A stretch of DNA of 64,000 nucleotides from assembly GCA_032117235.1 (NCBI GenBank), contig JAULZW010000003.1, positions 2,798-66,797 of the forward strand. The letters run 5' to 3'. The stretch comes from Minisyncoccota bacterium. GTDB lineage: Bacteria > Patescibacteriota > Minisyncoccia > SW-4-49-11. A model generated the notes under the pieces. It ran no database searches and was not told the DNA's origin. It saw nothing but the letters and a program-made list of their open reading frames with translations. Positions 21,845 to 52,595 of this stretch are shown here, piece by piece (the stretch's first letter is position 1; each line of letters starts with the position of its first letter). Made by a program: the position numbers and the translations under genes.

Positions 21845-22285
21845 ATGCTGTGTTTTGAGAGTCCCACAAGCCCTCGGAGGCTTTTTGTTATGGCTCTTTC
21901 AAAAGCTAACCAAAAATTATTAGTAACTGGCAAAATAATTATAATGCCTATATTGGCTGCTTTAGTGTATTCATGTTTATTAGACTTTTATAATCTAAAA
22001 TCACCTTATATTCACCCTCAAGAGGCTAATTTAGTTAAATTATGTATAATAGCATTATTAATAGTGATAGGAAACATAATACTTCTTTTTAATGAGATGT
22101 CATTATTTTGGAGTATTATAGTGGTAGCAATTTTTATATTAGCTTTTACACCACTTTATTTTTATAGCATAAAGATTCTGTTAAGTGTCATATTATATTT
22201 TCTCTGCTTATATTCAATAGACATAATCATTTTTATGATGAGATTTCTCGAAAGGAGAATTCATCAAAATCACACCCCTCGCTGA
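21845..22285 (+). CDS. hypothetical membrane protein (4 TM)
   Basis: Hydrophobicity only; the stop codon TGA lies in the terminator loop. Confidence 0.35.
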   Translation: MLCFESPTSPRRLFVMALSKANQKLLVTGKIIIMPILAALVYSCLLDFYNLKSPYIHPQEANLVKLCIIALLIVIGNIILLFNEMSLFWSIIVVAIFILAFTPLYFYSIKILLSVILYFLCLYSIDIIIFMMRFLERRIHQNHTPR

Positions 22286-22305
22286 GCGAGGGTTTTTTCT
22301 TTTTG
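22274..22305 (+). terminator. rho-independent terminator
   Basis: cccctcgc-tga-gcgaggg stem followed by ttttttcttttt. Confidence 0.6.
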
Positions 22306-22322
22306 CATGGTTTTTACCAATT

Positions 22323-22817
22323 TTACAAATTTAAAGCTAATTTATACACTTTTAATATTTTACTATAATAAGAAGTATTTAATAATGCTTCTGGGTTTTT
22401 CTTCACTACACTAAAGACTTTACTTTTAGATGTTTTCTTGGGAAGTTTTAATGCTGACTTTAACTCATCCTCTAAATTTTTATCTTGCCAGACAATAAAA
22501 ATACCAGCTTCTTTTGCATCTAACTCTAAATTTTTTATATATAAATCATTGTTTAAGTCATTATTATTATATATTCTGTCAAGGTCGACAACACATAACA
22601 TAGCATCAAATTCTGTATTTTGTTTCCATTTTTTACACCCAACTAAGATTGTATGAGGATCCCCACCTTTACCTGAATTAAAATAAGATTGACAGTTATT
22701 TGTATGATATTTAAATTGACTTATTTCAACAAGATAGTCAATTATTTTGCTATCCTTTAATCCTTCCGTATAAACCCCTATTGTTTGTTTTTTACTTTTG
22801 GTATTAGGTTTGACCAT
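22323..22817 (-). CDS. RloB/AbiLii-like TOPRIM-type protein (partner of the upstream AAA_21 ATPase)
   Basis: 164 aa; N-terminal IGVYTEG (conserved Glu) and VVDLDR (DxD) arranged as in TOPRIM/RloB-like proteins; 5-nt spacing to the upstream ATPase gene. Confidence 0.5.
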   Translation of the reverse strand: MVKPNTKSKKQTIGVYTEGLKDSKIIDYLVEISQFKYHTNNCQSYFNSGKGGDPHTILVGCKKWKQNTEFDAMLCVVDLDRIYNNNDLNNDLYIKNLELDAKEAGIFIVWQDKNLEDELKSALKLPKKTSKSKVFSVVKKNPEALLNTSYYSKILKVYKLALNL

Positions 22818-22822
22818 ATAAG

Positions 22823-23995
22823 CTAAACTTTAATTTTTGGAAAACCTCCATATTTTCCAGACATATATTTTTTTACAAAATTTTCATCGGGACGAGAATT
22901 TTCAATATCTGATACCCTATAGACTTCACTTTCACCTTTATTATTCTTATCTACAATAAAAATTTGTTCACGATCTAATTTATTTAAGATATTGATTGAA
23001 TGGGTAGAAAAAATAAACTGACACATTATATTCTCACTCTCAGATAAAAAATAAGAGATTAGTTTTTCAACAGCCTCAGGATGTAATCCCATTTCTAATT
23101 CATCAATTACAACTAAACCCTTGTATTTCATCGCAAGAAATATTGGTCCTAATAGTTCATAAAGAGATTTAGTACCTCGAGATTCATACTTAAAATCAAG
23201 AGATTTGTTACCGTGAATACCTTTAATATCAAAACTTCCATTATCTTTCTTATCTATGTTAAAAGACTCTAAACCAATATCAAATTTAGATATAAATTCT
23301 TTCATTTCTTCAAAAACCTCAGGTATTTCGGTATATATCCAAGATGCTAGATAAATATTTTTATCATTGAGAGAACTTTCATTCATATTTACTTGCCATA
23401 ACAAACCACTGAACATATTTTTAATCTCTTCCATAATATCAATTTTGAATGAAATTTCACTAAAAAAAGCAATTACGGACACATTATTTTTTATATCAGG
23501 TAATTTTAACTCCAGAGCATTAATTTTATCAAAATATATTTCAGATAACTGTAATTTTCCATTACTATCTCTTTCAAAAATATTATGTAATCTTTTTCCC
23601 TTAGTTTTGACTTGCATTTTCTCCAATAATACTATATTTTTTTGAATTTTTAGAGTATAAAAAAATATTTTTTGATTTTTTTCTAATTCTAGCTTAATTT
23701 CACATATATTATCATTATTGAAAAAAGTTTTATAAGATAATGATGTTTCTTGAGAAATATTTTCCAGCTTATCTGTAGGTCTTTTTGTAATAAAGTCTTG
23801 TATAAATTTAAATAGACGAACTATATTAGTTTTACCAGAAGCATTTCCTCCAATAATTGTAGCAATTTTGCTAATTTGATACTTATCAACTTTTGACTGC
23901 ATATAATCAAAAGTATTTTTTTTGGAAGTTAAAAAAGACATTTCAAAAGAATCTTGAAAAGAGTAAAAATTTTTAAAAGAAATTTTACGAATCAT
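22823..23995 (-). CDS. AAA_21-family (ABC-like) ATPase, RloA/AbiLi-like abortive-infection ATPase
   Basis: Walker A IIGGNASGKTNI near the N-terminus; C-terminal VVIDELEMGLHPEAVEKL...IFSTHS (D-loop/H-loop of the AAA_21/OLD-like ATPase family). Confidence 0.65.
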   Translation of the reverse strand: MIRKISFKNFYSFQDSFEMSFLTSKKNTFDYMQSKVDKYQISKIATIIGGNASGKTNIVRLFKFIQDFITKRPTDKLENISQETSLSYKTFFNNDNICEIKLELEKNQKIFFYTLKIQKNIVLLEKMQVKTKGKRLHNIFERDSNGKLQLSEIYFDKINALELKLPDIKNNVSVIAFFSEISFKIDIMEEIKNMFSGLLWQVNMNESSLNDKNIYLASWIYTEIPEVFEEMKEFISKFDIGLESFNIDKKDNGSFDIKGIHGNKSLDFKYESRGTKSLYELLGPIFLAMKYKGLVVIDELEMGLHPEAVEKLISYFLSESENIMCQFIFSTHSINILNKLDREQIFIVDKNNKGESEVYRVSDIENSRPDENFVKKYMSGKYGGFPKIKV

Positions 23996-24180: not shown

Positions 24181-24249
24181 TAACCCCAAAAGTAAGATAA
24201 TTATAGAATAGTTTAGTGATAGTGTCAATAGTTGATGGTGAGGTTTTAT

Positions 24250-24287
24250 CCTCCTCCGACCTTACGGCCACCTCCTCCAAAGGAGGA
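24250..24287. repeat. GC-rich palindromic element copy (cctcctccgaccttacggccacctcctccaaaggagga)
   Basis: Shares the architecture cctcc..TACGG..cctccaaaggagg with 28189-28228 and relatives. Confidence 0.55.
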
Positions 24288-24438
24288 CAAGTAATTATCT
24301 TATATTCTATGCAAATCTTTAATTTATTGACTTTTTATCTCGTAATTTGTCTACGATCATCTAATCGAGTACATACTCTGTATTTTTATGGGATTACAAG
24401 GTATAATATAAGATATATAGAATAATAAATTATAATAT

Positions 24439-26208
24439 ATGCCAGGAATTAATTTTAGGTCAATTATATTATCAGTATTGGAGGCGGATGAGAGAATTTG
24501 GTTTCAAAATGAAGAGGGAGAGAAGGAATTAAATCAAACTTTGCTTTTGGATTTGGTAGAAAAGATTGATGATAAGATTATTAATTTATTATTACAAGAG
24601 GAGGCTTTGAGAGAGAAGTTTTTTGCTAAAATTAGTCCAGATACTACTGAGAAGCAGTCTACTTATGTCTTCAAGATGAATGACTTTAGATTCTTTATGG
24701 AGGAGAATAAAATAGATAATTCTTATACAGCTTATAAAAACAGAATAGGGCTGATAGATGGGAAGAAATTCCTCAAAGATAGTAATGATATAGTGCTAAA
24801 TTGGCCGTATAAAGATTGTATTTTGGAAGGTGGGCAAAGTAATGAGGAAGGCACGGATAATTATTTTGAATACTCCGAAAAGACAGAGCAGTACGAACAA
24901 AAACAAGCTAAAAGAAAAGAGATATTTTTTAATTCCGTTCTTGCTCCTGATGAAATTGATAGATTATTAGACCCCAAGGCCTTGGTGAATTGGAAAAGGT
25001 TTACAGATAATGGTGAAGTTTCTTTAACCCAAAAACACTCCACCCCGTCACCTACGGTGCCACCCCTCAAGAGGGGAATTGATGGTACTATTGCTGAGAA
25101 TATGATTATCAAAGGTAATAATCTACTAGCTATGCATAGTCTCAAGAAGCAATTTGCAGGTAAAGTGAAGCTTATCTATATTGACCCGCCTTATAATACT
25201 GGGAATGATGGGTTTAAGTATAATGATAATTTTAATCATTCCACTTGGCTGACTTTTATGAAAAATAGATTAGAAGTAGCAAGGGAATTGTTAAGAGAGG
25301 ATGGAAGTATTTGGATAAGTTTAGATGATAAAGAATTTGCTTATCTAAAAGTACTTTGTGATGATATTTTTGGGAAAAATAATTTTTTGAATGATGTCAT
25401 TTGGAACTCAACAAAATCAGTAACAAATACTGCAATCATATCTGTTTCACATACACATAATTTAGTTTACTTCAAAAACAAAGATTATTATGTAAAGAAC
25501 AGAACAGAATTTAGACTTGATGAAGATGGGGAAGGATTTTCTAATCCTGACAATGATCCTCGTGGAGTTTGGAAATCCGATCCTTTTCAAGTTGGAGGCT
25601 GGAGACCAAATCAACAATATGAAATAAAAAACCCAAATACTGGAGTCATTTATAAACCAAATGAAAATTGTAGTTGGAAAAATGATCTTAACAAATTTCA
25701 AGAATTATTAAAAGATAATAGAATTGTTTTTGGAGTGGATGGAAAAGCTGGTCCACAAAGAAAAAGGTTTTTATTTGAAGCAGAAGAAAGAGGTAAAGTT
25801 ACAAAAACAATATGGGATGATGTAGGAACAACTACTAATGGAACTCAGCACATAAAAAAGCTTTTCAATAAAGCTGTATTTGATAATCCCAAACCAGAAG
25901 AGTTTATAAAAAGAATTATTGAACTTTCAACAAATGAAAACGACATTGTCCTTGACTATCATCTCGGATCTGGCACAACTGCCGCCGTAGCTCATAAAAT
26001 GGGGCGGCAATATATTGGGATTGAGCAGATGGATTATGTGGAGACTATTGCGGTGGAGAGGCTCAAAAAAGTGATAGGACAATCCACCTCCCCCGCTAAA
26101 GCGGGTACTACTCAAAAGGAGAATTTTAGGAAATTAACAGCAAAAAAAAGGCAAAGTTTGCAAGATATTTTGGAGAAAATAAAAAATTCTAATAATAGTT
26201 TAGGGTAA
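24439..26208 (+). CDS. mod: Type III restriction-modification DNA methyltransferase (Mod), N6-adenine, beta-class
   Basis: ENMIIKGNNLLAMHSL followed by motif IV DPPYNTG, then C-terminal motif I LDYHLGSGTTAAVAHKMGRQYIGIE; the N-terminus resembles Type III Mod N-termini. Confidence 0.85.
   Translation: MPGINFRSIILSVLEADERIWFQNEEGEKELNQTLLLDLVEKIDDKIINLLLQEEALREKFFAKISPDTTEKQSTYVFKMNDFRFFMEENKIDNSYTAYKNRIGLIDGKKFLKDSNDIVLNWPYKDCILEGGQSNEEGTDNYFEYSEKTEQYEQKQAKRKEIFFNSVLAPDEIDRLLDPKALVNWKRFTDNGEVSLTQKHSTPSPTVPPLKRGIDGTIAENMIIKGNNLLAMHSLKKQFAGKVKLIYIDPPYNTGNDGFKYNDNFNHSTWLTFMKNRLEVARELLREDGSIWISLDDKEFAYLKVLCDDIFGKNNFLNDVIWNSTKSVTNTAIISVSHTHNLVYFKNKDYYVKNRTEFRLDEDGEGFSNPDNDPRGVWKSDPFQVGGWRPNQQYEIKNPNTGVIYKPNENCSWKNDLNKFQELLKDNRIVFGVDGKAGPQRKRFLFEAEERGKVTKTIWDDVGTTTNGTQHIKKLFNKAVFDNPKPEEFIKRIIELSTNENDIVLDYHLGSGTTAAVAHKMGRQYIGIEQMDYVETIAVERLKKVIGQSTSPAKAGTTQKENFRKLTAKKRQSLQDILEKIKNSNNSLG
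25036..25080. repeat. 45-nt GC-rich palindromic element inserted in frame within mod (encodes HSTPSPTVPPLKRG-like segment)
   Basis: cactccaccccgtcacctacggtgccacccctcaagaggggaatt; 19-nt core GTGGCACCGTAGGTGACGG is identical (reverse complement) to 28105-28123; flanks match 29071-29112. Confidence 0.6.
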
Positions 26209-26212
26209 AGAT

Positions 26213-27193
26213 ATGACTAAAAAAAGTAAAATCCAATACAGCTTAATACCTTTTAATGGAGATGAAATAATGGCAATTACCAAAGATGGTAAAAAGTTTG
26301 TAGTACCAAAACAGATTTGTGAGAATTTAGGGTTGTCATGGAGTGGTCAATTTGAAAAAATTAAAAGAGACAGTGTCTTAAAGGACGCAATTCGTGTCAT
26401 ACCAATACCGCAAAAAAACCCTTCAGGATCAGGGTTTATAAATCAAGAAACTCTAGCTTTACCACTGGAATATCTCAATGGTTGGTTATTTGGAATTGAT
26501 GATACGAGAGTAAAAGAAGCAATTAGGCCAAAAATAATTGATTATAAAAAGCAATGTTATATTGTTTTATATGAATATTTTAATAAAGGTGCAAGTATTG
26601 ATGTCAATAGATTAGAGGAGGATATTGAATTACAAGACTATATTTACCGCAAAGTTCGCCAAGCTAGAACTAGTGAAAGGAGTTTATGGGAGAGAGTTAA
26701 AAAAGCCTTTGAATATGGGAGTAAAGATTATGATAAAGATTCTGAATTAGCCAAAAAGTTTTATGCTTTAGCTCAAGATAAAATTCATTATGCGGTTACC
26801 AAAAATATAGCTTCTGAACTTATATATAATAGAATAAAAACAGATCCAGCAACAAATTTTGGTATGATTGCATTTGACCAATATAGAAAAATTAAGTTAA
26901 AAGATTTACAAGTAGGTAAAAATTATTTGCAAGAATTAGAGTTAAAACAGTATGAAAATATTGGAGAACAGCTTTTACTTAAAATCGAATTAAGATTATT
27001 AAGAGGTGGTAAAATAACTATGGAAGAATGGTTTTTTGAAATAAATGATTTATTAAAACAAAATGGATATGAAATTTTATTTGATTATTCTAAATCCAAG
27101 ATAGATCGTCAAACTGCTAATAGTAAAGCTAAAGAAATATGGAAAGAAAATAAGCATTTACTCAAAGAAGATGTTAAAAAACTAACTAAATAA
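26213..27193 (+). CDS. phage antirepressor-like protein (Bro-N/AntA/pRha-type N-terminal domain, uncharacterised C-terminal domain)
   Basis: N-terminus IPFNGDEIMAITKDGKKFVVPKQICENLGLSWSGQFEKIKRD and LPLEYLNGWLFGIDDTRVKEAIRPKIIDYKKQCYIVLYEYF resemble phage antirepressor/RhuM-like N-terminal regions. Confidence 0.45.
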   Translation: MTKKSKIQYSLIPFNGDEIMAITKDGKKFVVPKQICENLGLSWSGQFEKIKRDSVLKDAIRVIPIPQKNPSGSGFINQETLALPLEYLNGWLFGIDDTRVKEAIRPKIIDYKKQCYIVLYEYFNKGASIDVNRLEEDIELQDYIYRKVRQARTSERSLWERVKKAFEYGSKDYDKDSELAKKFYALAQDKIHYAVTKNIASELIYNRIKTDPATNFGMIAFDQYRKIKLKDLQVGKNYLQELELKQYENIGEQLLLKIELRLLRGGKITMEEWFFEINDLLKQNGYEILFDYSKSKIDRQTANSKAKEIWKENKHLLKEDVKKLTK

Positions 27194-27202
27194 GATTAAT
27201 TT

Positions 27203-27712
27203 ATGAAGAATAATCATCTACAATTAAGCAAATTTGAAATTCAACTTTTGGAAAGTTTAGGTTTTGACCCAAATTCACAGAATCTACAAGAGGAAATACA
27301 GGAAATGTTGGAAACTAGCAAAGTTGCATCACAACAAGATTTTGATACTGGAGGTATTAGTAAAGCCGTAAATTGGCAAGGTGGTGGTGATTTTATCTAC
27401 TTTGAACTAGCAAAATGGAATGAAGTTGCCAAAGAGAGAATTTTAGAGGCTGAGAGTTTAGAGCAATTGATTGAGTTTTTTGATGAGATGTATGAGAGAT
27501 ATTTCCTTAACTATAATCTCAAAATTCAAGAGTTTAGAGATAAGATTATACAGGAGGAGAGTTTTCAGAATCTGCCTTTAGCGGAGCAAAAACAGATTTT
27601 TATAGCTATGCTGGATAATAATCAGATGTATGTGAATGCTTCTGAAATGTCAGATGCTAAATTTGGTATTAGTGAGGAGGAGCAGGCTTTGACTGAGGAG
27701 TTTTATAATTAA
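27203..27712 (+). CDS. hypothetical acidic protein (169 aa), third member of the mod-res intervening cassette
   Basis: ORF begins 10 nt after the previous stop; no motif recognised. Confidence 0.35.
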   Translation: MKNNHLQLSKFEIQLLESLGFDPNSQNLQEEIQEMLETSKVASQQDFDTGGISKAVNWQGGGDFIYFELAKWNEVAKERILEAESLEQLIEFFDEMYERYFLNYNLKIQEFRDKIIQEESFQNLPLAEQKQIFIAMLDNNQMYVNASEMSDAKFGISEEEQALTEEFYN

Positions 27713-27728
27713 TTATAAATTGTGAATT

Positions 27729-28115
27729 ATGAATGATAAATTAAAAAAATCATCTAATCAAACAATAGAGTCTAGCTCAGGTATTAAGAAAAACTTAATA
27801 ACTTCTACTGGTGATAAAAAAGATAATTCAATTATTTTATTTAATCAAAAAGAAGTTCGCAGATACTGGGATGCGGATCAAGAGCAGTGGTACTTTTCGG
27901 TTGTGGATGTGATTGAAATTTTGACAGGCTCTAGTATTCCGAAAAGATATTGGAGTGACTTAAAAAATAAACTAAAAGAAGAAGGAAGTGAAGTGTACGA
28001 AAAAATCGTACGGTTGAAAATGAAAGCAGAAGATGGAACAGGGATTAATAATCTTATGTTTAAACTACAACATTATCCTTTTAACTGTCCTCCCTTGGGG
28101 GAGGTGGCACCGTAG
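27729..28115 (+). CDS. Bro-N domain protein (128 aa)
   Basis: ILFNQKEVRRYWDADQEQWYFSVVDVIEILTGS matches the Bro-N/ORF6N consensus (iRvv..dGepWFvakDVa..Lg); the C-terminus and stop codon lie inside a GC-rich repeat element. Confidence 0.5.
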   Translation: MNDKLKKSSNQTIESSSGIKKNLITSTGDKKDNSIILFNQKEVRRYWDADQEQWYFSVVDVIEILTGSSIPKRYWSDLKNKLKEEGSEVYEKIVRLKMKAEDGTGINNLMFKLQHYPFNCPPLGEVAP

Positions 28116-28130
28116 GTGACGGAGGAGGAC
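28087..28130. repeat. GC-rich palindromic element copy (gtcctcccttgggggaggtggcaccgtaggtgacggaggaggac)
   Basis: 5' half near-identical to 52427-52452; core identical to the in-frame copy in mod. Confidence 0.6.
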
Positions 28131-28188
28131 TATACATATTTTTAAATTTATCATCTATACTCCTAGTTAATAATTCTCATTTGCAAAT

Positions 28189-28228
28189 GTCCTCCCTCCC
28201 CCTACGGGGACTCCCTCCAAAGGGAGAC
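28189..28228. repeat. GC-rich palindromic element copy (gtcctccctccccctacggggactccctccaaagggagac)
   Basis: Same architecture as 24250-24287. Confidence 0.55.
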
Positions 28229-28352
28229 ATCATTCTCTTAACCTAATTAAAAGAGTATAAAACATTATAGACACTACAAGAATATAATATTATAATAGTA
28301 ATAAAATCAAGGTTTAATCTATTATTTCTACAATTCACAATTAATATAAACT

Positions 28353-31145
28353 ATGTCTGAGATCAAAAACTTATATGAGATAATCAACACTCAAAAGCAA
28401 GGATTAAAAAACTTTAATCCTGAAATTTTTGAAATCCCAGATTATATTTCTAATAATTTGAAATATAGTTTTTTTGATTGGCAAAGGGAGGCTTTGGAGA
28501 ACTTTTTATTTTATCAAAATCCAAAATCAAATTTAGCTAAATCCCCTACTCATCTAATGTTCAATATGGCGACTGGAACGGGGAAAACTATGCTAATGGC
28601 GGCTTCTATTTTGTATTATTATAAACAGGGTTATCGGCATTTTATCTTTTTTGTGAATCAAAATAATATTGTTAGTAAGACAGAGAATAATTTTATTGCT
28701 AATTTGCATAATAAGTATTTATTTCAAGACAAAATTGTGATTGATAATCAGACGGTGGAGATTAAAAAAGTGGAGGCTTTTAGTGATAATCCGACTGGTA
28801 TTGAGATTAAATTCACTTCGGTACAAAAATTATATAATGATATTCATTTACAAAGAGAAAACCAGACTACTTTACCGGATTTATGGAATAAAAATATTGT
28901 AATGTTGGCTGATGAGGCTCATCATCTCAATACGGATACTAAAAAAGCGAAATTACAGACCGCTTTACTTGACACTGAACTGAACAATAAATCTAGTGAA
29001 AATGTGGTTGAAAAGCTAGGCTGGGAGCATACGGTGATTGAATTGATTTTGAATAAAAATAATAAAAAATCCACCCCGCTGTCTAAAGACAGCACCCCTC
29101 AAGAGGGGAATTCTAACTGTAATGTCTTATTAGAATTTACGGCGACTATTCCAGCTACTGCCAGTGTGGCGAAGAAATATGAGGATAAAATTATTTATAA
29201 ATTTGATTTGAAGCAATTTTTGCAAGCTGGGTTTACGAAGCAGATTAATCTGATTTCTTCTAATCTGAATAAGCGGGATAGAATTTTGCAGGCTTTATTA
29301 TTTCATTGGTATCGGCATAAAGTTGCTCTGGATGCTGGTATTCCTAATTTTAAGCCGGTGATTTTATTCCGTAGCAAGACTATTGAGGAGTCTAAGTATG
29401 ATTATGAGGAGTTTTTGGATATGATTCAGAATTTGAGTTTGGATGATTTACAATTTTTGGATTATATTTTAGAGAACTTTAAGTTTGCTAATCATAGTTT
29501 GTATGAACAAGGTAAGAATAGGACAGAGCAATTAGTAGATTATATTCAAGTTAATAAAATTAAAAGAAGTGAGATTATTGACTTTTTGAAGCAGAATTTC
29601 CAAGCTAAAAATGTGATTATTACTAACTCTAAGAGTAATAAAACTAAAAAAGAAAAAACTGATGAGGAAATAGATAATTTATTGAATAATTTGGAGGACA
29701 AAAATAATCATATTCGAGCTATTTTTACAGTGGAGAGATTAACTGAAGGTTGGGATGTGCTGAATTTATATGATATTGTACGGTTATATGAGGGGCAGAA
29801 TACAGGAGGGTCTTATCAGAAAGGTAATAAACCTCCTGAATCTACCACCAAAGAAAAGCAGTTAATTGGTCGTGGAGTGAGATATTATCCTTTTGATTAT
29901 CCAGAAAAAGAGAGGCATCGGCGAAAATTTGATAATGATACTCAAAAACGAGAGCGAATTTTGGAGGAGTTATTCTTTTATAGTATCAATGAAAGTAGGT
30001 ATATCTCGGAGTTAAAAACCGAGCTCAAGAGGGATGGGTTTATTGATGAGAATCGTAATATTAGAACCTTTGAATTGAAGGATAGCTTTAAGAAAACCAA
30101 TTTCTATAAACAGGTTAAAGTTTGGCAGAATAAAAAAATCCCGAATCCAAATAGACGGAAGAATACTCTAGCCGATTTGAAGCAAGATAAAAATTATTTT
30201 ATGTCTGCTTATCAGGTGCCAACTTATAGTGTAAGAGAAGACGGAGTGGACTTTGAGAAGGAGGAAAAAGAATATAGATTGAATCAAATGGCTAATCCAA
30301 ACTCTAACTTTGAGATTCCTTTAGCTAAGATGGAGAAACATATTTTTTATAAAGCGATTCATATTTTATCTAAACAAAGCAATTCTTTATATCGTTTTGA
30401 TAATTTGAGGCAAGAATTGAATATTGATAGTATGGAGGATTTGTTGCAAGCGGAGTTTTTGGGAGATATTATGATACCTTTTAAGCTACCAGCTAAAATG
30501 ACTTATCAGGATTTGGATAATAAGCATAAATTACAGGCAGTGATGCAAGTTTTGACTGATATTGAGCGAAGATTAGCGGAGTCTATTAGTGAATATATTG
30601 GTAGTAAGGAGTTTTATCCAAAGAGTTTGGAGAGTATTTTTGGAGCTCCGAAAGCTAAGGCGATTGACACTTTGAATGAGCATACCGAGATGGCTGAACA
30701 AAATGATTGGTATGTTTTGAATAATTTTGTAGGCACAGATCAGGAGCAGTCTTTACTGGAGTTTATCAAAAGCTCTATGTCTGAGTTAGAGCAAAAATAC
30801 GGTGAGATTTATTTATTAAGAAATGAAGAGGTGTATGGGATTTATGATTTTGACAAAGGTAGAACTTTTATGCCGGACTTTTTGTTATTTTTGAAAACTA
30901 AGGATAAACACAATGTAGGAGTGTCTAAGACGGAACTATACTATCAGGTATTTATTGAGCCAAAAGGTGCTCAATTAGCAACTTTGGATGCTTGGAAAAA
31001 TGACTTTCTAGCTGAAATTCAATATAATTATAAATTGGAGAATATAATTCAAGCTGAAAACTCTAATTATAGATTGATTGGACTACCTTTCTTTAATACT
31101 AATCTAAGTGCCGAGTTTAGAGATAAATTCTCAGAATTAATTTAA
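28353..31145 (+). CDS. res: Type III restriction enzyme Res subunit (SF2 DEAH helicase plus C-terminal PD-(D/E)xK endonuclease)
   Basis: Motif I ATGTGKT, motif II LADEAHHL, helicase C motifs (QLIGRGVR), C-terminal MPDFLLF...YQVFIEPKG nuclease motif. Confidence 0.85.
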   Translation: MSEIKNLYEIINTQKQGLKNFNPEIFEIPDYISNNLKYSFFDWQREALENFLFYQNPKSNLAKSPTHLMFNMATGTGKTMLMAASILYYYKQGYRHFIFFVNQNNIVSKTENNFIANLHNKYLFQDKIVIDNQTVEIKKVEAFSDNPTGIEIKFTSVQKLYNDIHLQRENQTTLPDLWNKNIVMLADEAHHLNTDTKKAKLQTALLDTELNNKSSENVVEKLGWEHTVIELILNKNNKKSTPLSKDSTPQEGNSNCNVLLEFTATIPATASVAKKYEDKIIYKFDLKQFLQAGFTKQINLISSNLNKRDRILQALLFHWYRHKVALDAGIPNFKPVILFRSKTIEESKYDYEEFLDMIQNLSLDDLQFLDYILENFKFANHSLYEQGKNRTEQLVDYIQVNKIKRSEIIDFLKQNFQAKNVIITNSKSNKTKKEKTDEEIDNLLNNLEDKNNHIRAIFTVERLTEGWDVLNLYDIVRLYEGQNTGGSYQKGNKPPESTTKEKQLIGRGVRYYPFDYPEKERHRRKFDNDTQKRERILEELFFYSINESRYISELKTELKRDGFIDENRNIRTFELKDSFKKTNFYKQVKVWQNKKIPNPNRRKNTLADLKQDKNYFMSAYQVPTYSVREDGVDFEKEEKEYRLNQMANPNSNFEIPLAKMEKHIFYKAIHILSKQSNSLYRFDNLRQELNIDSMEDLLQAEFLGDIMIPFKLPAKMTYQDLDNKHKLQAVMQVLTDIERRLAESISEYIGSKEFYPKSLESIFGAPKAKAIDTLNEHTEMAEQNDWYVLNNFVGTDQEQSLLEFIKSSMSELEQKYGEIYLLRNEEVYGIYDFDKGRTFMPDFLLFLKTKDKHNVGVSKTELYYQVFIEPKGAQLATLDAWKNDFLAEIQYNYKLENIIQAENSNYRLIGLPFFNTNLSAEFRDKFSELI
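29071..29112. repeat. 42-nt GC-rich palindromic element inserted in frame within res (encodes STPLSKDSTPQEGN-like segment)
   Basis: ccaccccgctgtctaaagacagcacccctcaagaggggaatt; flanks identical to the mod copy (ccaccccg ... cacccctcaagaggggaatt), with a different internal palindrome gctgtctaaagacagc. Confidence 0.6.
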
Positions 31146-31155
31146 GGTTTAATCT

Positions 31156-32145
31156 ATGGCTGAACTATTCGCTTTTATATTCTTAATATCACTAGTTTGT
31201 TTGGTGTTGGGTTTGATTCGGCCAGCAATATTTACTAAGTTATTTCGTGATAAGCCTAAGAGGAAACAAACTGGAGTGCTTTTTGGGGTTTTGATTTTTA
31301 TTTCTATTGTTGTAATAGGGGCTAGTCCTGCTCCTGAGGTATCTCAAGATATAAAACCTGAACCAGTAGCGAAGACGGTGGAAACTACAGATGTCGCGCC
31401 TGCGGAGGACAATACTACTACTCCTGAGCCTGAGAGTGTGTCTGTGGTGCCTGTTTTACCAGCTCTAAGCCCTACTGAAGAGCAGTCTAGTATTCCACAG
31501 CCCGAGGTAAAGCAAGAGTCAAATTCTGCCCAAAATCCGACTAGAGATTTATTCAAAGTAACTGAAGTTGTAGATGGAGATACGATTAAAGTTAGTACGA
31601 TTGGGACATTGAGATTAATTGGTATAGATACTCCTGAAACAAGAGATCCTCGTAAACCAGTACAATGTTTTGGTAAGGAGGCTAGTAATAAGGCTAAGGA
31701 ATTATTAAGTGGTAAAAAGATATATCTAGAATATGACCCTGCCAACAAAATAGATAAATATGGAAGAACTTTAGCTTATGTTTATCGTGAAGATGGATTA
31801 TTCTATAATGCTGAGATGATTAAACAGGGGTATGCTCATTCTTATGTACAATTCCCCCACCCTAGATTAGATGAATTCAATACTTATCAGCAAGAGGCTA
31901 GAGAGAATAATAGAGGTTTTTGGGCGACTAATACTTGTAATGGAGATACTATTCAAGCCGTTTCGGTGAGTTCTAAAACTGCCATTCCCCTACCGATTAG
32001 CCATGAGATAAATAAAGATGGGTTTATCAAAGGTAGTTGTGCGAGTTTGATAAAATTAGGTTTAGGTAATTTTGAAAGAGGAGACCCTAATTATACTGAA
32101 TCCAGAGACCGCGATGAGGATGGTATTGCTTGTGAAATGAATTGA
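31156..32145 (+). CDS. membrane-anchored thermonuclease (SNase-like) with C-terminal Excalibur calcium-binding domain
   Basis: N-terminal TM helix, Pro/Glu-rich linker, SNase core (VVDGDTIKV...LRLIGIDTPET...YGRTLAYVY), C-terminal DRDEDGIACE Excalibur motif; begins 11 nt after res. Confidence 0.7.
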   Translation: MAELFAFIFLISLVCLVLGLIRPAIFTKLFRDKPKRKQTGVLFGVLIFISIVVIGASPAPEVSQDIKPEPVAKTVETTDVAPAEDNTTTPEPESVSVVPVLPALSPTEEQSSIPQPEVKQESNSAQNPTRDLFKVTEVVDGDTIKVSTIGTLRLIGIDTPETRDPRKPVQCFGKEASNKAKELLSGKKIYLEYDPANKIDKYGRTLAYVYREDGLFYNAEMIKQGYAHSYVQFPHPRLDEFNTYQQEARENNRGFWATNTCNGDTIQAVSVSSKTAIPLPISHEINKDGFIKGSCASLIKLGLGNFERGDPNYTESRDRDEDGIACEMN

Positions 32146-52426: not shown

Positions 52427-52466
52427 GTCCTCCTTAGGAGGAGGTGGCACGAAGTGCCGGAGGTGG
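52427..52466. repeat. GC-rich palindromic element copy inside the oriC region
   Basis: gtcctccttaggaggaggtggcacgaagtgccggaggtgg; 5' half matches 28087-28112. Confidence 0.55.
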
Positions 52467-52530
52467 ATAGAGATAAAAGTTATTTATATTTTCTAATAAT
52501 ATTAAATTTTAGAATATGGACTTACTTTTA

Positions 52531-52590
52531 CCCACCCCCGCCTTTCAGGCTTCCCCCCTCCCTGCCTACCGCAGGCAGGCAAAGGGGGAC
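52531..52590. repeat. C-rich/G-rich palindromic element (cccacccccgcctttcaggcttcccccctccctgcctaccgcaggcaggcaaagggggac)
   Basis: Same cctcc...stem-loop...caaaggggg architecture; lies between the DnaA boxes and the AT-rich DUE-like tract. Confidence 0.5.
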
Positions 52591-52595
52591 AAAAA

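What the first reader, a model, noticed from the sequence alone, without database searches (positions are those of the whole stretch)
26213..28115. Phage-like three-gene cassette (antirepressor-like, unknown, Bro-N) wedged between mod and res of a Type III R-M system
Type III mod and res are normally adjacent and co-transcribed. Here they are separated by about 2.1 kb on the same strand carrying three tightly packed ORFs. Two have N-terminal domains resembling phage Bro-N/AntA/pRha DNA-binding modules (VVPKQICENLGLSW...; EVRRYWDADQEQWYFSVVDVIEILTG). The third, 169 aa and acidic, is unknown. The cassette might be an integrated mobile fragment using the R-M system as a safe harbour, a regulatory or antirestriction module, or an added sensor/effector layer (Bro-N-type DNA binders coupled to a restriction helicase-nuclease). 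I do not recognise this arrangement as a described system.
Basis: partly seen in the sequence, partly recalled or inferred. Interest (0 to 1): 0.7.

Follow-up and report, generated by a model that had tools for sequence, protein, structure and literature searches.

The report
Restriction methylase gene split by passenger
The "three-gene cassette" is one real passenger gene (a RhuM-family candidate phage-defence gene) sitting inside a Type III methylase gene, followed by the methylase's own detached C-terminal domain and a truncated second passenger; the same split-gene layout recurs in other bacteria with different passengers, and I found no description of it.

Summary
The ORFs exist as described, but they are not a three-gene cassette. 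ORF2 (27203-27712), called "unknown, acidic", is the C-terminal domain of Mod: residues 47-168 match the last 123 positions of a Type III methylase profile (E 4e-44), and in 72 of 80 related genomes this region is fused to Mod. ORF1 (26213-27193) is a P22_AR_N + RhuM protein (PADLOC candidate PDC-S05) that splits mod at the methyltransferase/C-terminal-domain linker. In EcoP15I that C-terminal domain docks Res. ORF3 (27729-28115) is a 3'-truncated Bro-N/PDC-S13 gene; relatives carry the intact 305-aa form.

The split recurs in at least 15 loci. All share a conserved Mod-N "tail" and Mod-C "head", but the passengers differ: RhuM, PemK, KilA-N, Bro-N, NADAR and ATPases. Mod-C is under purifying selection (dN/dS 0.01-0.10), and at least 10 alleles with different recognition domains keep the split, so the two-piece Mod is probably functional. 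One close relative has re-fused the gene in frame.

Accessory genes inside R-M operons are known; a split Mod with a passenger slot was not found in the literature searched. Verdict: new variant of a known kind, moderately interesting.

The parts
24439..26208 (+). mod-N: Type III Mod N-terminal domain, methyltransferase core and target-recognition domain (589 aa), ending in a 42-aa tail
   Evidence: PF12564 and PF01555. PADLOC MTase_III PDLC03635, E 2e-154. DPPY and LGSGTT motifs are readable in the translation. AF2 model with Foldseek best hits 6k0w, 4zcf and 7dsu, all Type III Mods. The central region 25393-25890 has no DNA match to the closest relative, i.e. a variable recognition domain.
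26128..26205 (+). Conserved part of the Mod-N tail (RKLTAKKRQSLQDILEKIKNSNNSLG), absent from unsplit Mods
   Evidence: Homologous tails are present in every split locus regardless of passenger. The AF2 helix at residues 568-586 has pLDDT about 86. This is the left breakpoint against L006.
26213..27193 (+). ORF1, the passenger gene in slot A: P22_AR_N DNA-binding domain plus RhuM helical domain (326 aa)
27203..27712 (+). mod-C: detached C-terminal domain of Mod (169 aa), made of a 46-aa head plus the core
   Evidence: Residues 47-168 match positions 578-700 of the 708-position PDLC03635 profile, E 3.9e-44. This region is contiguous with Mod in 72 of 80 genome loci. dN/dS 0.01-0.10. AF2 gives an alpha/beta core at residues 653-757 of the concatenated model.
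27203..27340 (+). Mod-C head (MKNNHLQLSKFEIQLLESLGFDPNSQNLQEEIQEMLETSKVASQQD), specific to split alleles
   Evidence: Conserved in 13 clusters at 90% identity and in 3 representatives at 50% identity. AF2 helices at 599-607 and 617-632 have pLDDT about 85. This is the right breakpoint against L006, at 27338/27339.
27729..28115 (+). ORF3: 3'-truncated Bro-N/PDC-S13 gene in slot B (128 aa; only codons 1-104 are homologous)
   Evidence: PDC-S13 positions 3-76 of 286, E 5e-29. Full-length 305-aa homologues occur in L086 and L006. DNA homology to L006 stops at 28038. The same truncated allele is present in L098 and L099.
28039..28348 (.). 310-bp replacement segment holding two GC-rich double-hairpin mini-elements (28084-28130, 28186-28228) and a promoter-like site (28268-28296, + strand) upstream of res
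   Evidence: blastn against L006; GC-rich patch scan; promoter scan, 11 of 12 matches; hairpin folds; sub-threshold Rfam whalefall-1 match.
28353..31145 (+). res: Type III restriction subunit (930 aa)
   Evidence: PF04851 E 1e-23. PADLOC REase_III E 4e-112. dN/dS 0.03-0.08.
22323..23995 (-). Context: AbiL-like pair (AAA_21 ATPase plus an RloB-like protein) immediately upstream, forming a small defence islet with the R-M locus
   Evidence: AbiLi E 1.5e-65. PF13304, and PF13707 weakly. The same pair lies next to mod in L096, L098 and L099.

Best explanation
This is a Type III R-M operon, probably from a Saccharibacteria genome, whose mod gene exists in two pieces.

- **Where the split lies.** An accessory gene (ORF1) sits inside mod, in the linker between the methyltransferase core and the C-terminal domain.
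- **Mod-N.** It keeps everything that EcoP15I Mod needs to dimerise, recognise its site and methylate: N-terminal domain, methyltransferase core and recognition domain.
- **Mod-C.** By position it corresponds to the domain through which EcoP15I ModA contacts Res.
- **Tail and head.** Both pieces carry extensions not found in unsplit Mods: a mostly basic helical tail on Mod-N and an acidic two-helix head on Mod-C. I infer that these hold the two pieces together so that Res can still be recruited.
- **ORF1.** It is an independent passenger: a RhuM-family candidate defence protein with a phage-antirepressor-type DNA-binding domain. It is probably co-transcribed with mod and adds a second defence layer, as proposed for RhuM genes in Type I loci.
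- **ORF3.** It is the decayed remnant of a second passenger, in the more common slot between mod and res.
- **The slot is general.** The same tail/head frame holds unrelated passengers in other lineages. Passengers are presumably exchanged by recombination in the conserved mod flanks, and the split can be reversed by an in-frame deletion.

Shown here: the identities of the parts, the recurrence of the layout, purifying selection, and the re-fusion in one relative. Inferred: tail-head association (about 0.5), the Res-docking role of Mod-C (about 0.6), a defence role for ORF1 (about 0.6), and a single transcript.
For: **ORF2 is the Mod C-terminal domain.** PADLOC profile match, E 3.9e-44. In 72 of 80 genome loci the region is contiguous with Mod, and none of the 80 has a gene at this position.

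**The split site is the methyltransferase/C-terminal-domain boundary.** The AF2 model places the last methyltransferase helix at 532-549, then tail and head helices, then an alpha/beta core. Foldseek's best hits are Type III Mods, including EcoP15I. In EcoP15I the C-terminal domain (aa 539-644) of ModA makes extensive contacts with Res, and Mod2 dimerises through its N-terminal and methyltransferase domains and can act as a standalone methylase (PMC4490356).

**The layout recurs with different passengers.**
- PemK (L001); Bro-N plus KilA-N (L002); KilA-N (L003, L088); Bro-N/PDC-S13 (L087).
- NADAR (L091), with mod-N present upstream.
- AAA_15/21 ATPase (L089) and HATPase_c_4 protein (L093): these lie immediately upstream of a head-bearing Mod-C, but no mod-N lies on the contig.
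- P22_AR_N-RhuM (window, L086, L096-L099, L101).
- Sources.

**Tail and head are conserved whatever the passenger**.

**The two-piece Mod looks functional.** Mod-C dN/dS is 0.01-0.10, compared with 0.03-0.08 for Res. At least 10 Mod-N clusters have different recognition domains but the same tail.

**Reversibility.** L006 is nested among split alleles: its Res dS to L096 is 0.063, the lowest of the pairs. It carries an in-frame re-fusion that keeps the tail-side STSPAKAGT element and the head-side FDTGGISK motif, and its junction equals a deletion between two ATTTT repeats.

**The junction module moves independently of the Mod core.** Head identity is discordant with core identity: L001 vs L091 is 72% head and 45% core; window vs L001 is 60% head and 79% core. 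Split alleles fall into at least 4 clusters of the core tree.

**Passengers are defence candidates.** They match PDC-S05, PDC-S13 and PDC-S22. One PDC-S05 RhuM gene reduced plating of T7 and T5 about 1000-fold and of T4 about 10-fold. RhuM genes in R-M operons have been proposed as toxins (PMC3710099).

**Operon structure.** Gaps between the genes from mod-N to ORF3 are 4-16 nt, and no + strand terminator-like site lies between mod and res.
Against: - There is no experimental or methylome evidence that the two-piece Mod works.
- The tail-head contact could not be checked.
- Equivalence of Mod-C to the EcoP15I C-terminal domain rests on position and gross alpha/beta content only. No sequence similarity was found.
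- A PDC-S04 gene, a family whose N-terminal domain resembles that of ORF3, showed no defence activity in its native host.
- The split type is rare: 3 of 1160 representative hits, and none among the 80 best species-representative genomes.
- The NJ tree is built from about 125 residues and has no support values.
- A strong promoter-like site lies upstream of res, so res may be transcribed separately.
- The tail-basic/head-acidic charge pattern is not universal; the L001 tail has net charge -1.
Confidence: 0.7

Rival explanations
1. Decaying locus: ORF1 inserted into mod and inactivated it. ORF2 would then be a dead gene fragment, and the R-M system would be non-functional or reduced to an orphan methylase.
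For: ORF3 next door is clearly a truncated remnant. GC-rich mini-elements litter the locus. Type III mod genes are often disrupted: simple frameshift or stop splits without passengers were seen in L008, L009, L056, L059 and L030.
Against: Mod-C dN/dS is 0.01-0.10, as low as for Res. Head-bearing Mod-C ORFs remain intact across 47-94% identity. The tail and head extensions are conserved. At least 10 recognition-domain alleles are maintained on the split frame. Gene spacing is tight.
Confidence: 0.1
2. Mobile three-gene phage-derived cassette: ORF1-ORF3 arrived together as an integrated phage or mobile fragment that uses the R-M locus as a safe harbour.
For: The N-domains are of phage type: phrog_524 Ant and Bro-N. 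Distant P22_AR_N-RhuM proteins occur in predicted viral contigs with no R-M genes nearby. Embedding in an addictive R-M operon could protect a passenger from deletion.
Against: ORF2 is part of Mod. ORF1 and ORF3 occupy separate slots that vary independently: slot B is empty in L101, holds a 101-aa ORF in L096, and holds the full 305-aa gene in L086 and in the unsplit L006. No recombinase domain was found in ORF1-3, and no long terminal repeats were seen. Viral relatives are at most 40% identical. There is no GC discontinuity.
Confidence: 0.03
3. Regulatory module: the passenger proteins, which carry DNA-binding N-domains, act like C-proteins. They would control the timing or level of res or mod-C expression rather than act as defence effectors.
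For: P22_AR_N, Bro-N and KilA-N are DNA-binding domains. The best structural match of ORF1 is the DNA-binding protein DdrC, and no enzyme fold was found. A promoter-like site lies upstream of res.
Against: Other passengers in the same slot are PemK toxins, NADAR/PRTase-like proteins and AAA ATPases. About 75% of related operons have no passenger. A PDC-S05 gene on its own gave phage resistance.
Confidence: 0.12
4. Guard model: the passenger is held inactive by the assembled Mod-N/Mod-C/Res complex and fires when a phage anti-restriction factor disrupts that complex, as PrrC does with EcoprrI.
For: The passenger sits at the joint between the methylation module and the Res-docking domain. The slot accepts toxin-like passengers such as PemK without an adjacent antitoxin. 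There is a Type I precedent (PMC3710099).
Against: No interaction evidence exists. The same passenger families also sit between unsplit mod and res and in viral contigs without any R-M system. The position may simply be a permissive linker.
Confidence: 0.12

Closest known systems
Accessory or toxin genes embedded in R-M operons (prrC in EcoprrI, rloC, RhuM, Fic/DOC; Anantharaman et al. 2013, PMC3710099; RhuM between Type I core genes, PMC9881135)
   Same: A RhuM-family gene lies co-oriented inside an R-M operon. The passenger families are the same ones seen in Type I loci. A multi-layer defence role has been proposed.
   Different: The host here is a Type III system, and the passenger lies inside the mod coding sequence rather than between genes. 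It splits Mod into two ORFs that carry dedicated extensions. ORF1 has no HEPN or ABC-ATPase domain.
EcoP15I Mod (PDB 4zcf; NTD-MTase-TRD-CTD, PMC4490356)
   Same: Same overall domain order. Foldseek E 1e-21. The split coincides with the MTase-CTD linker.
   Different: EcoP15I Mod is a single polypeptide. The C-terminal domains share no detectable sequence similarity. The window protein has an added tail and head.
PADLOC phage-defence candidates PDC-S05 (RhuM), PDC-S13 (Bro-N) and PDC-S22 (KilA-N)
   Same: ORF1, ORF3 and the passengers at other loci match these profiles strongly. One PDC-S05 gene is experimentally protective.
   Different: ORF1 replaces the usual RhuM N-terminus with a P22_AR_N domain; the profile match begins at about residue 110. 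ORF3 keeps only the first 76 profile positions.
Genes-in-pieces created by an inserted free-standing gene (for example phage Aeh1 nrdA split by the mobE homing endonuclease; recalled from memory, not checked here)
   Same: A host gene is split into two ORFs by an inserted ORF, with both halves retained.
   Different: The inserted genes here have no homing-endonuclease domains. The slot holds many unrelated passengers. The host is an R-M methylase in cellular genomes.
Phage P22 Ant antirepressor
   Same: N-terminal P22_AR_N domain (111.8 bits; phrog_524).
   Different: The C-terminal half is a RhuM domain rather than the Ant C-terminal domain. The gene is in an R-M operon, not a phage immunity region.

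Membership tests
Type III restriction-modification system | Mod of the beta-class amino-methyltransferase type (motif IV DPPY before motif I FxGxG, with the recognition domain between them) plus a Type III N-terminal domain | tested here: met
   PF01555 169 bits and PF12564 46.5 bits. IDPPYNTG lies upstream of LGSGTT in the translation. PADLOC MTase_III E 2e-154. Foldseek best hits are Type III Mods.
Type III restriction-modification system | Res subunit with an SF2 helicase-like ATPase, encoded downstream on the same strand | tested here: met
   PF04851 84 bits. PADLOC REase_III E 4e-112 over residues 256-928. The nuclease motif was not examined separately.
Type III restriction-modification system | Mod as a single polypeptide that includes the Res-contacting C-terminal domain | tested here: not met
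   The C-terminal domain is a separate ORF, 994 nt downstream of the mod-N stop.
Type III restriction-modification system | Motif-specific hemimethylation and ATP-dependent two-site cleavage | not testable with these tools
   Requires methylome data and biochemistry.
RhuM family / PADLOC PDC-S05 (ORF1) | Match to PF13310 above the gathering score and to PDC-S05 profiles | tested here: met
   122.8 bits against a cut-off of 33.7. PDC-S05 E 9e-39.
RhuM family / PADLOC PDC-S05 (ORF1) | Anti-phage activity | not testable with these tools
   Only one unrelated PDC-S05 representative has been tested.
RhuM as a Fic/DOC-like enzymatic toxin | A recognisable catalytic fold or motif | tested here: inconclusive
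P22 Ant-type antirepressor (ORF1) | P22_AR_N domain together with the Ant C-terminal domain, in a phage immunity region | tested here: not met
   Only the N-domain matches. The C-terminal half is RhuM. Phage hits are at most 34% identical and mostly cover only part of the query.
Bro-N / PDC-S13 (ORF3) | Full-length Bro-N domain plus the family's C-terminal domain (about 280-305 aa) | tested here: not met
   The window ORF3 has no Pfam hit and covers only PDC-S13 positions 3-76 of 286. Intact homologues in L086 and L006 meet the criterion.
PrrC/EcoprrI-type R-M-guarding anticodon nuclease | ABC-ATPase plus HEPN nuclease domains | tested here: not met
   No such domains in ORF1-3.
PrrC/EcoprrI-type R-M-guarding anticodon nuclease | Embedded in an R-M operon and silenced by binding the R-M complex | tested here: inconclusive
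   Embedding is met. Binding cannot be tested here.
Integrated mobile element or prophage fragment | A recombinase or transposase, terminal repeats or att sites, and a compositional break | tested here: not met
   No recombinase domain in ORF1-3. Only a 5-bp ATTTT repeat at the breakpoints. GC content is continuous.
Homing-endonuclease genes-in-pieces | The inserted ORF encodes an HNH, GIY-YIG or LAGLIDADG endonuclease | tested here: not met
   Pfam and PADLOC scans of all passengers examined found none.

The most novel reading that the evidence does not exclude
The tail-passenger-head unit is an exchangeable cassette frame that has spread among Type III mod genes of several phyla. By supplying the Res-docking domain in trans, it makes restriction, but not protective methylation, depend on a non-covalent joint. 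The embedded passenger protein senses or controls that joint. This would be a Type III analogue of the PrrC guard principle, built into the architecture of Mod itself.
Probability: 0.15. Interest if true: 0.8.

Novelty: new variant of a known kind. Interest (0 to 1): 0.55.

Why it matters
If the two-piece Mod is active, the Res-docking domain of a Type III methylase can work as a separate subunit held by short helical handles. That would be a natural experiment on how Mod recruits Res, and a possible point at which restriction could be regulated without risking loss of methylation.

It would also define a second, intragenic hotspot where candidate defence genes (RhuM, Bro-N, KilA-N, PemK, NADAR, ATPases) are parked and swapped. 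Such a hotspot is useful for discovering new defence genes and for annotation. Current pipelines label the detached piece as "hypothetical" or as a partial methylase, and may score such R-M systems as broken.

Tried and rejected
- **Head as a diverged duplicate of the methyltransferase helix that precedes GGISK.** hhalign probability 0.3%; rejected.
- **PDB sequence searches.** Mod-C and ORF3 gave only chance hits. The ORF1 profile gave none.
- **Generic repeat search of the window.** It found nothing relevant, so the GC-rich mini-elements had to be found with a custom scan.
- **Metagenome scan with a head-only alignment.** It returned only 3 loci, so the breadth estimate rests mainly on protein-database hits.
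- **Look-up of the window's own Mod (P0121).** It failed, so the organism is inferred from L006 (Saccharibacteria, 93% nt identity over res).
- **Shared passenger C-termini.** KKLTK, SKLTK and KKLTNK occur in three unrelated passengers and might mark a cassette boundary, but other passengers lack them and RhuM proteins end similarly. Left unexplained.
- **Other apparent Mod-C fragments of 180-290 aa with PF01555.** Where checked (L030) these are plain frameshift or stop splits with no inserted gene, not a second slot.
- **Rfam.** Only one sub-threshold hit.
- **Insertion or deletion at the L006/window breakpoint.** The junction alone is ambiguous. Deletion in L006 is preferred because L006 is nested among split alleles.
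Full report
**Observation.** Gaps between the genes from mod to ORF3 are 4-16 nt; a 237-nt spacer precedes res. mod hits PF01555 and PF12564, and res hits PF04851. PADLOC identifies both as Type III components (E 2e-154 and 4e-112). GC content is continuous across the region. Flanking genes are chromosomal core genes (prfB, ychF, rpsF, ssb, rpsR, rpsT). An AbiL-like pair lies just upstream on the other strand.

**What the three ORFs are.**
- ORF1 has a P22_AR_N domain (residues 12-127, 111.8 bits) and a RhuM domain (110-313, 122.8 bits). It matches the PADLOC candidate PDC-S05 (E 9e-39). Its N-terminal half matches phage Ant proteins (phrog_524).
- ORF2 is not an unknown protein. Residues 47-168 match positions 578-700 of the 708-position Type III methylase profile PDLC03635 (E 3.9e-44), the same profile that mod matches over its N-terminal part.
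- ORF3 matches only the first 76 of 286 positions of PDC-S13 and has no Pfam hit.

**ORF2 is the detached C-terminal domain of Mod.** A survey of species-representative genomes with an ORF2 alignment returned 80 loci. In 72 of them the ORF2-like sequence is the C-terminus of a 600-740-aa Mod in a single ORF. The rest are contig ends or simple frameshifts, and none has a gene at this position. Canonical unsplit Mods read ...VERLKKVIEGEQGGISKxVNWQGGG.... In the window the protein stops 42 residues after VERLKKVIG, and ORF2 resumes 46 residues before GGISK.

**Where the split lies.** I modelled the concatenated Mod-N plus Mod-C with AF2 (pLDDT 78.7). The model gives, in order:
- the last methyltransferase helix (532-549);
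- a low-confidence stretch;
- tail helices (558-564 and 568-586, pLDDT about 86);
- the junction;
- head helices (599-607 and 617-632, pLDDT about 85);
- an alpha/beta C-terminal core (653-757).

Foldseek's best PDB matches are Type III Mods: 6k0w, EcoP15I 4zcf and 7dsu. The EcoP15I paper defines an NTD, an MTase domain, a TRD and a CTD (aa 539-644). It reports that Mod2 dimerises through the NTD and MTase domains and can act as a standalone methylase, and that the CTD of ModA makes extensive contacts with Res (PMC4490356). By position, the split therefore separates the methylation module from the Res-docking domain. This equivalence is inferred, because the C-terminal domains share no detectable sequence similarity.

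**The split is a recurrent architecture.** ORF2 homologues in the protein database include 13 clusters of about 165-172 aa with a conserved N-terminal head (M..N..LtKqEIqLLesLGldpNS.NLq.eIq..L...DFDtGGISK). Their genomic contexts are as follows.

| Locus | Gene(s) between Mod-N and Mod-C (slot A) | Gene between Mod-C and Res (slot B) |
|---|---|---|
| window, L098, L099 | P22_AR_N-RhuM (ORF1) | truncated Bro-N/PDC-S13, 128 aa |
| L086 | P22_AR_N-RhuM | full Bro-N/PDC-S13, 305 aa |
| L096 | P22_AR_N-RhuM | unannotated 101-aa ORF |
| L097 | P22_AR_N-RhuM | about 100-aa ORF, contig ends |
| L101 | P22_AR_N-RhuM | empty |
| L001 | PemK | RhuM |
| L002 | Bro-N/PDC-S13 plus KilA-N/PDC-S22 | 23S_rRNA_IVP |
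| L003 | KilA-N | empty |
| L088 | KilA-N | contig ends |
| L087 | Bro-N/PDC-S13 | AlbA_2/HATPase_c_4 |
| L091 | NADAR/PRTase-like, 597 aa | not resolved |
| L089 (needs genetic code 25) | AAA_15/21 ATPase upstream; no Mod-N on the contig | RhuM |
| L093 | HATPase_c_4 protein upstream (cut); no Mod-N on the contig | empty |

All Mod-N proteins in these loci end with a homologous tail (K..KRK.s.eEK..Lq.ILeKl...n.sL*), whatever the passenger. Tails are mostly net basic and heads net acidic.

**The two-piece Mod looks functional.**
- Mod-C dN/dS is 0.01-0.10, comparable to Res at 0.03-0.08. ORF1 is at 0.04-0.35.
- In the Saccharibacteria group at least 10 Mod-N clusters share near-identical N- and C-terminal parts and the same tail, but have different central recognition domains. 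The window's own recognition domain has no DNA match to its closest relative. Diversifying specificity is hard to reconcile with a dead methylase.
- The locus occurs in two different chromosomal neighbourhoods.

**Evolution of the split.** The closest genome, L006 (a Saccharibacteria MAG), is 90-98% identical in DNA across the locus but has an unsplit 692-aa mod. Window positions 26128-27338 (the conserved tail, ORF1 and the head) are replaced in L006 by 43 bp. That 43 bp corresponds to a 41-nt GC-rich mini-element flanked by a 7-bp repeat. Without it, the L006 junction equals the window sequence after a deletion between two ATTTT repeats. L006 keeps the tail-side STSPAKAGT element and the head-side FDTGGISK motif. 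Its Res is closest to that of the split locus L096 (dS 0.063). I therefore read L006 as a secondary in-frame re-fusion.

Across lineages, head and tail identities are discordant with core identities. L001 vs L091 is 72% in the head and 45% in the core, whereas window vs L001 is 60% and 79%. Split alleles fall into at least 4 clusters interleaved with unsplit ones in an NJ tree of the core (short alignment, no support values). The junction module has therefore probably spread by recombination between mod genes.

A search of 1.84 billion cluster representatives found 1160 hits, only 3 of which start with the head, so the split type is rare. Some unsplit Mods carry a short linker (VIGKANSKGKLKETIEKYDDGGISK) that resembles the outer ends of the tail and head. 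This may be the ancestral linker. The idea that the head is a duplicate of the preceding helix was rejected.

**The passengers.** Among the unsplit relatives with res found downstream, 18 of 71 have a gene between mod and res. Of 20 such slot-B genes scanned (19 from those genome loci plus L001's), 9 are RhuM/PDC-S05 and 4 are Bro-N/PDC-S13. The others include SduA_C, DUF1828, HATPase_c_3, Abi_2 and a metallo-beta-lactamase fold. RhuM genes inside R-M operons have been described and proposed to be toxins acting in multi-layer defence (PMC3710099). They are also noted between Type I core genes (PMC9881135). One PDC-S05 RhuM gene gave 10- to 1000-fold protection against T4, T5 and T7 (bioRxiv 10.1101/2024.09.26.614923). 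A PDC-S04 gene showed no activity in its native host.

No close relatives of ORF1 occur in phage genomes or viral contigs. Identity is at most 40%, and most hits cover only the N-domain. Three distant full-length homologues lie in viral contigs without R-M genes.

**ORF3.** L086 and L006 carry a full-length 305-aa gene (Bro-N plus a C-domain; PDC-S13 E 1e-130; weak DinD-like signal) in the same place. In the window, homology ends at 28038. The remaining 310 bp contain two GC-rich double-hairpin mini-elements and a promoter-like site upstream of res. The same truncated allele is present in L098 and L099, so it is not an assembly artefact. It is most simply a decaying second passenger.

**Most likely mechanism.**
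- Shown: mod is in two pieces separated by a passenger gene. The arrangement is conserved, under selection and reversible. The passengers belong to candidate defence families.
- Inferred: Mod-N dimers methylate on their own. Mod-C re-associates through the tail and head helices and recruits Res. ORF1 is co-transcribed and acts as an additional, independent defence factor. Passengers are exchanged by recombination in the conserved mod flanks.
- Rivals: a dead locus, a phage cassette, a regulatory protein, and a PrrC-like guard. They are scored separately in the rival explanations.

**Novelty.** Full-text searches found papers on RhuM in R-M loci but none on a split Type III Mod or on passenger genes inside mod. 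The finding is therefore a new variant of a known theme (accessory genes embedded in R-M operons), not a new kind of system. It is moderately interesting because it exposes the Mod C-terminal domain as a separable subunit and defines an intragenic passenger slot.

Noticed in passing
window 22269-22294, 24249-24288, 25036-25078, 26082-26108, 28084-28130, 28186-28228, 29070-29112; also 1773-1834, 52436-52467, 52530-52592: A family of GC-rich mini-elements (about 26-63 nt, mostly about 40-47 nt) in a 32% GC genome, concentrated around the R-M locus. Those folded form one or two short hairpins, and several have GTCCTCC...GGAGGAC termini. Three sit in frame inside mod and res, encoding stretches such as STPSPTVPPLKRG, STSPAKAGT and STPLSKDSTPQEGN. 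Copies also occur in L006 and inside other Mod alleles (P0125, P0143, P0144, P0176, P0103). One has a sub-threshold Rfam whalefall-1 match (25.4 bits against a threshold of 37). This is reminiscent of Rickettsia palindromic elements that insert into coding regions.
   Followed up: partly
window 22323-23995 (- strand): An AbiL-like pair (390-aa AAA_21 ATPase, AbiLi E 1.5e-65, plus a 164-aa weakly RloB-like protein) lies directly upstream of mod. The same pair accompanies the R-M locus in L096, L098 and L099 but not in L100 or L101.
   Followed up: partly
L096, L100, L101 compared with window, L098, L099: The same split-mod R-M locus lies in two different chromosomal neighbourhoods in related Saccharibacteria: next to dnaA/rpmH/rnpA/yidC, or next to prfB/ychF. 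This implies island mobility or genome rearrangement.
   Followed up: no
window 25393-25890; proteins P0125-P0176: The target-recognition region of mod is hypervariable among otherwise near-identical alleles. At least 10 recognition-domain types share the same split frame. The window's own recognition domain is shared at about 70% identity with Mods from other phyla.
   Followed up: partly
L095:2789-3283: A head-bearing Mod-C gene lies next to ERF and SSB recombination genes on a 3.6-kb contig, with no Mod-N or Res detectable. It may be a phage-borne copy of unknown role.
   Followed up: partly
L089:2177-2695: This split locus translates correctly only with UGA read as Gly (GWISK/NWSWWW becomes GGISK/NWQGGG). 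That indicates a code-25 lineage (Gracilibacteria/Absconditabacteria) and extends the architecture beyond Saccharibacteria.
   Followed up: partly
window 26191-26208 and homologous positions in L001, L087, L091, L096: The 3' end of mod-N (AATAGTTTRRTSTAA, encoding NSL[GVMI] then stop) is conserved at the DNA level across loci with unrelated passengers. Three unrelated passengers also end in KKLTK, SKLTK or KKLTNK. These could be cassette boundary signals or chance in AT-rich DNA.
   Followed up: partly
window 28268-28296 (+ strand): A strong sigma-70-like promoter match (TAGACA, 17-nt spacer, TATAAT; 11 of 12) lies about 55 nt upstream of res, inside the segment that replaced the 3' part of ORF3. 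res may have gained its own promoter.
   Followed up: no
window 31156-32145 (+ strand): A protein with a hydrophobic N-terminus and SNase plus Excalibur domains lies immediately after res. It is conserved next to res in L006, L086, L096, L098 and L099, but is separated from it in L101.
   Followed up: no
P0399 and P0147 (both recorded on a 36909-bp contig): An ORF1-like passenger (80% identity) appears to sit with a Mod-N from a different lineage and tail type (L087-like). That would suggest the same passenger family has been placed in different split frames. Co-location is inferred only from the matching contig length.
   Followed up: no
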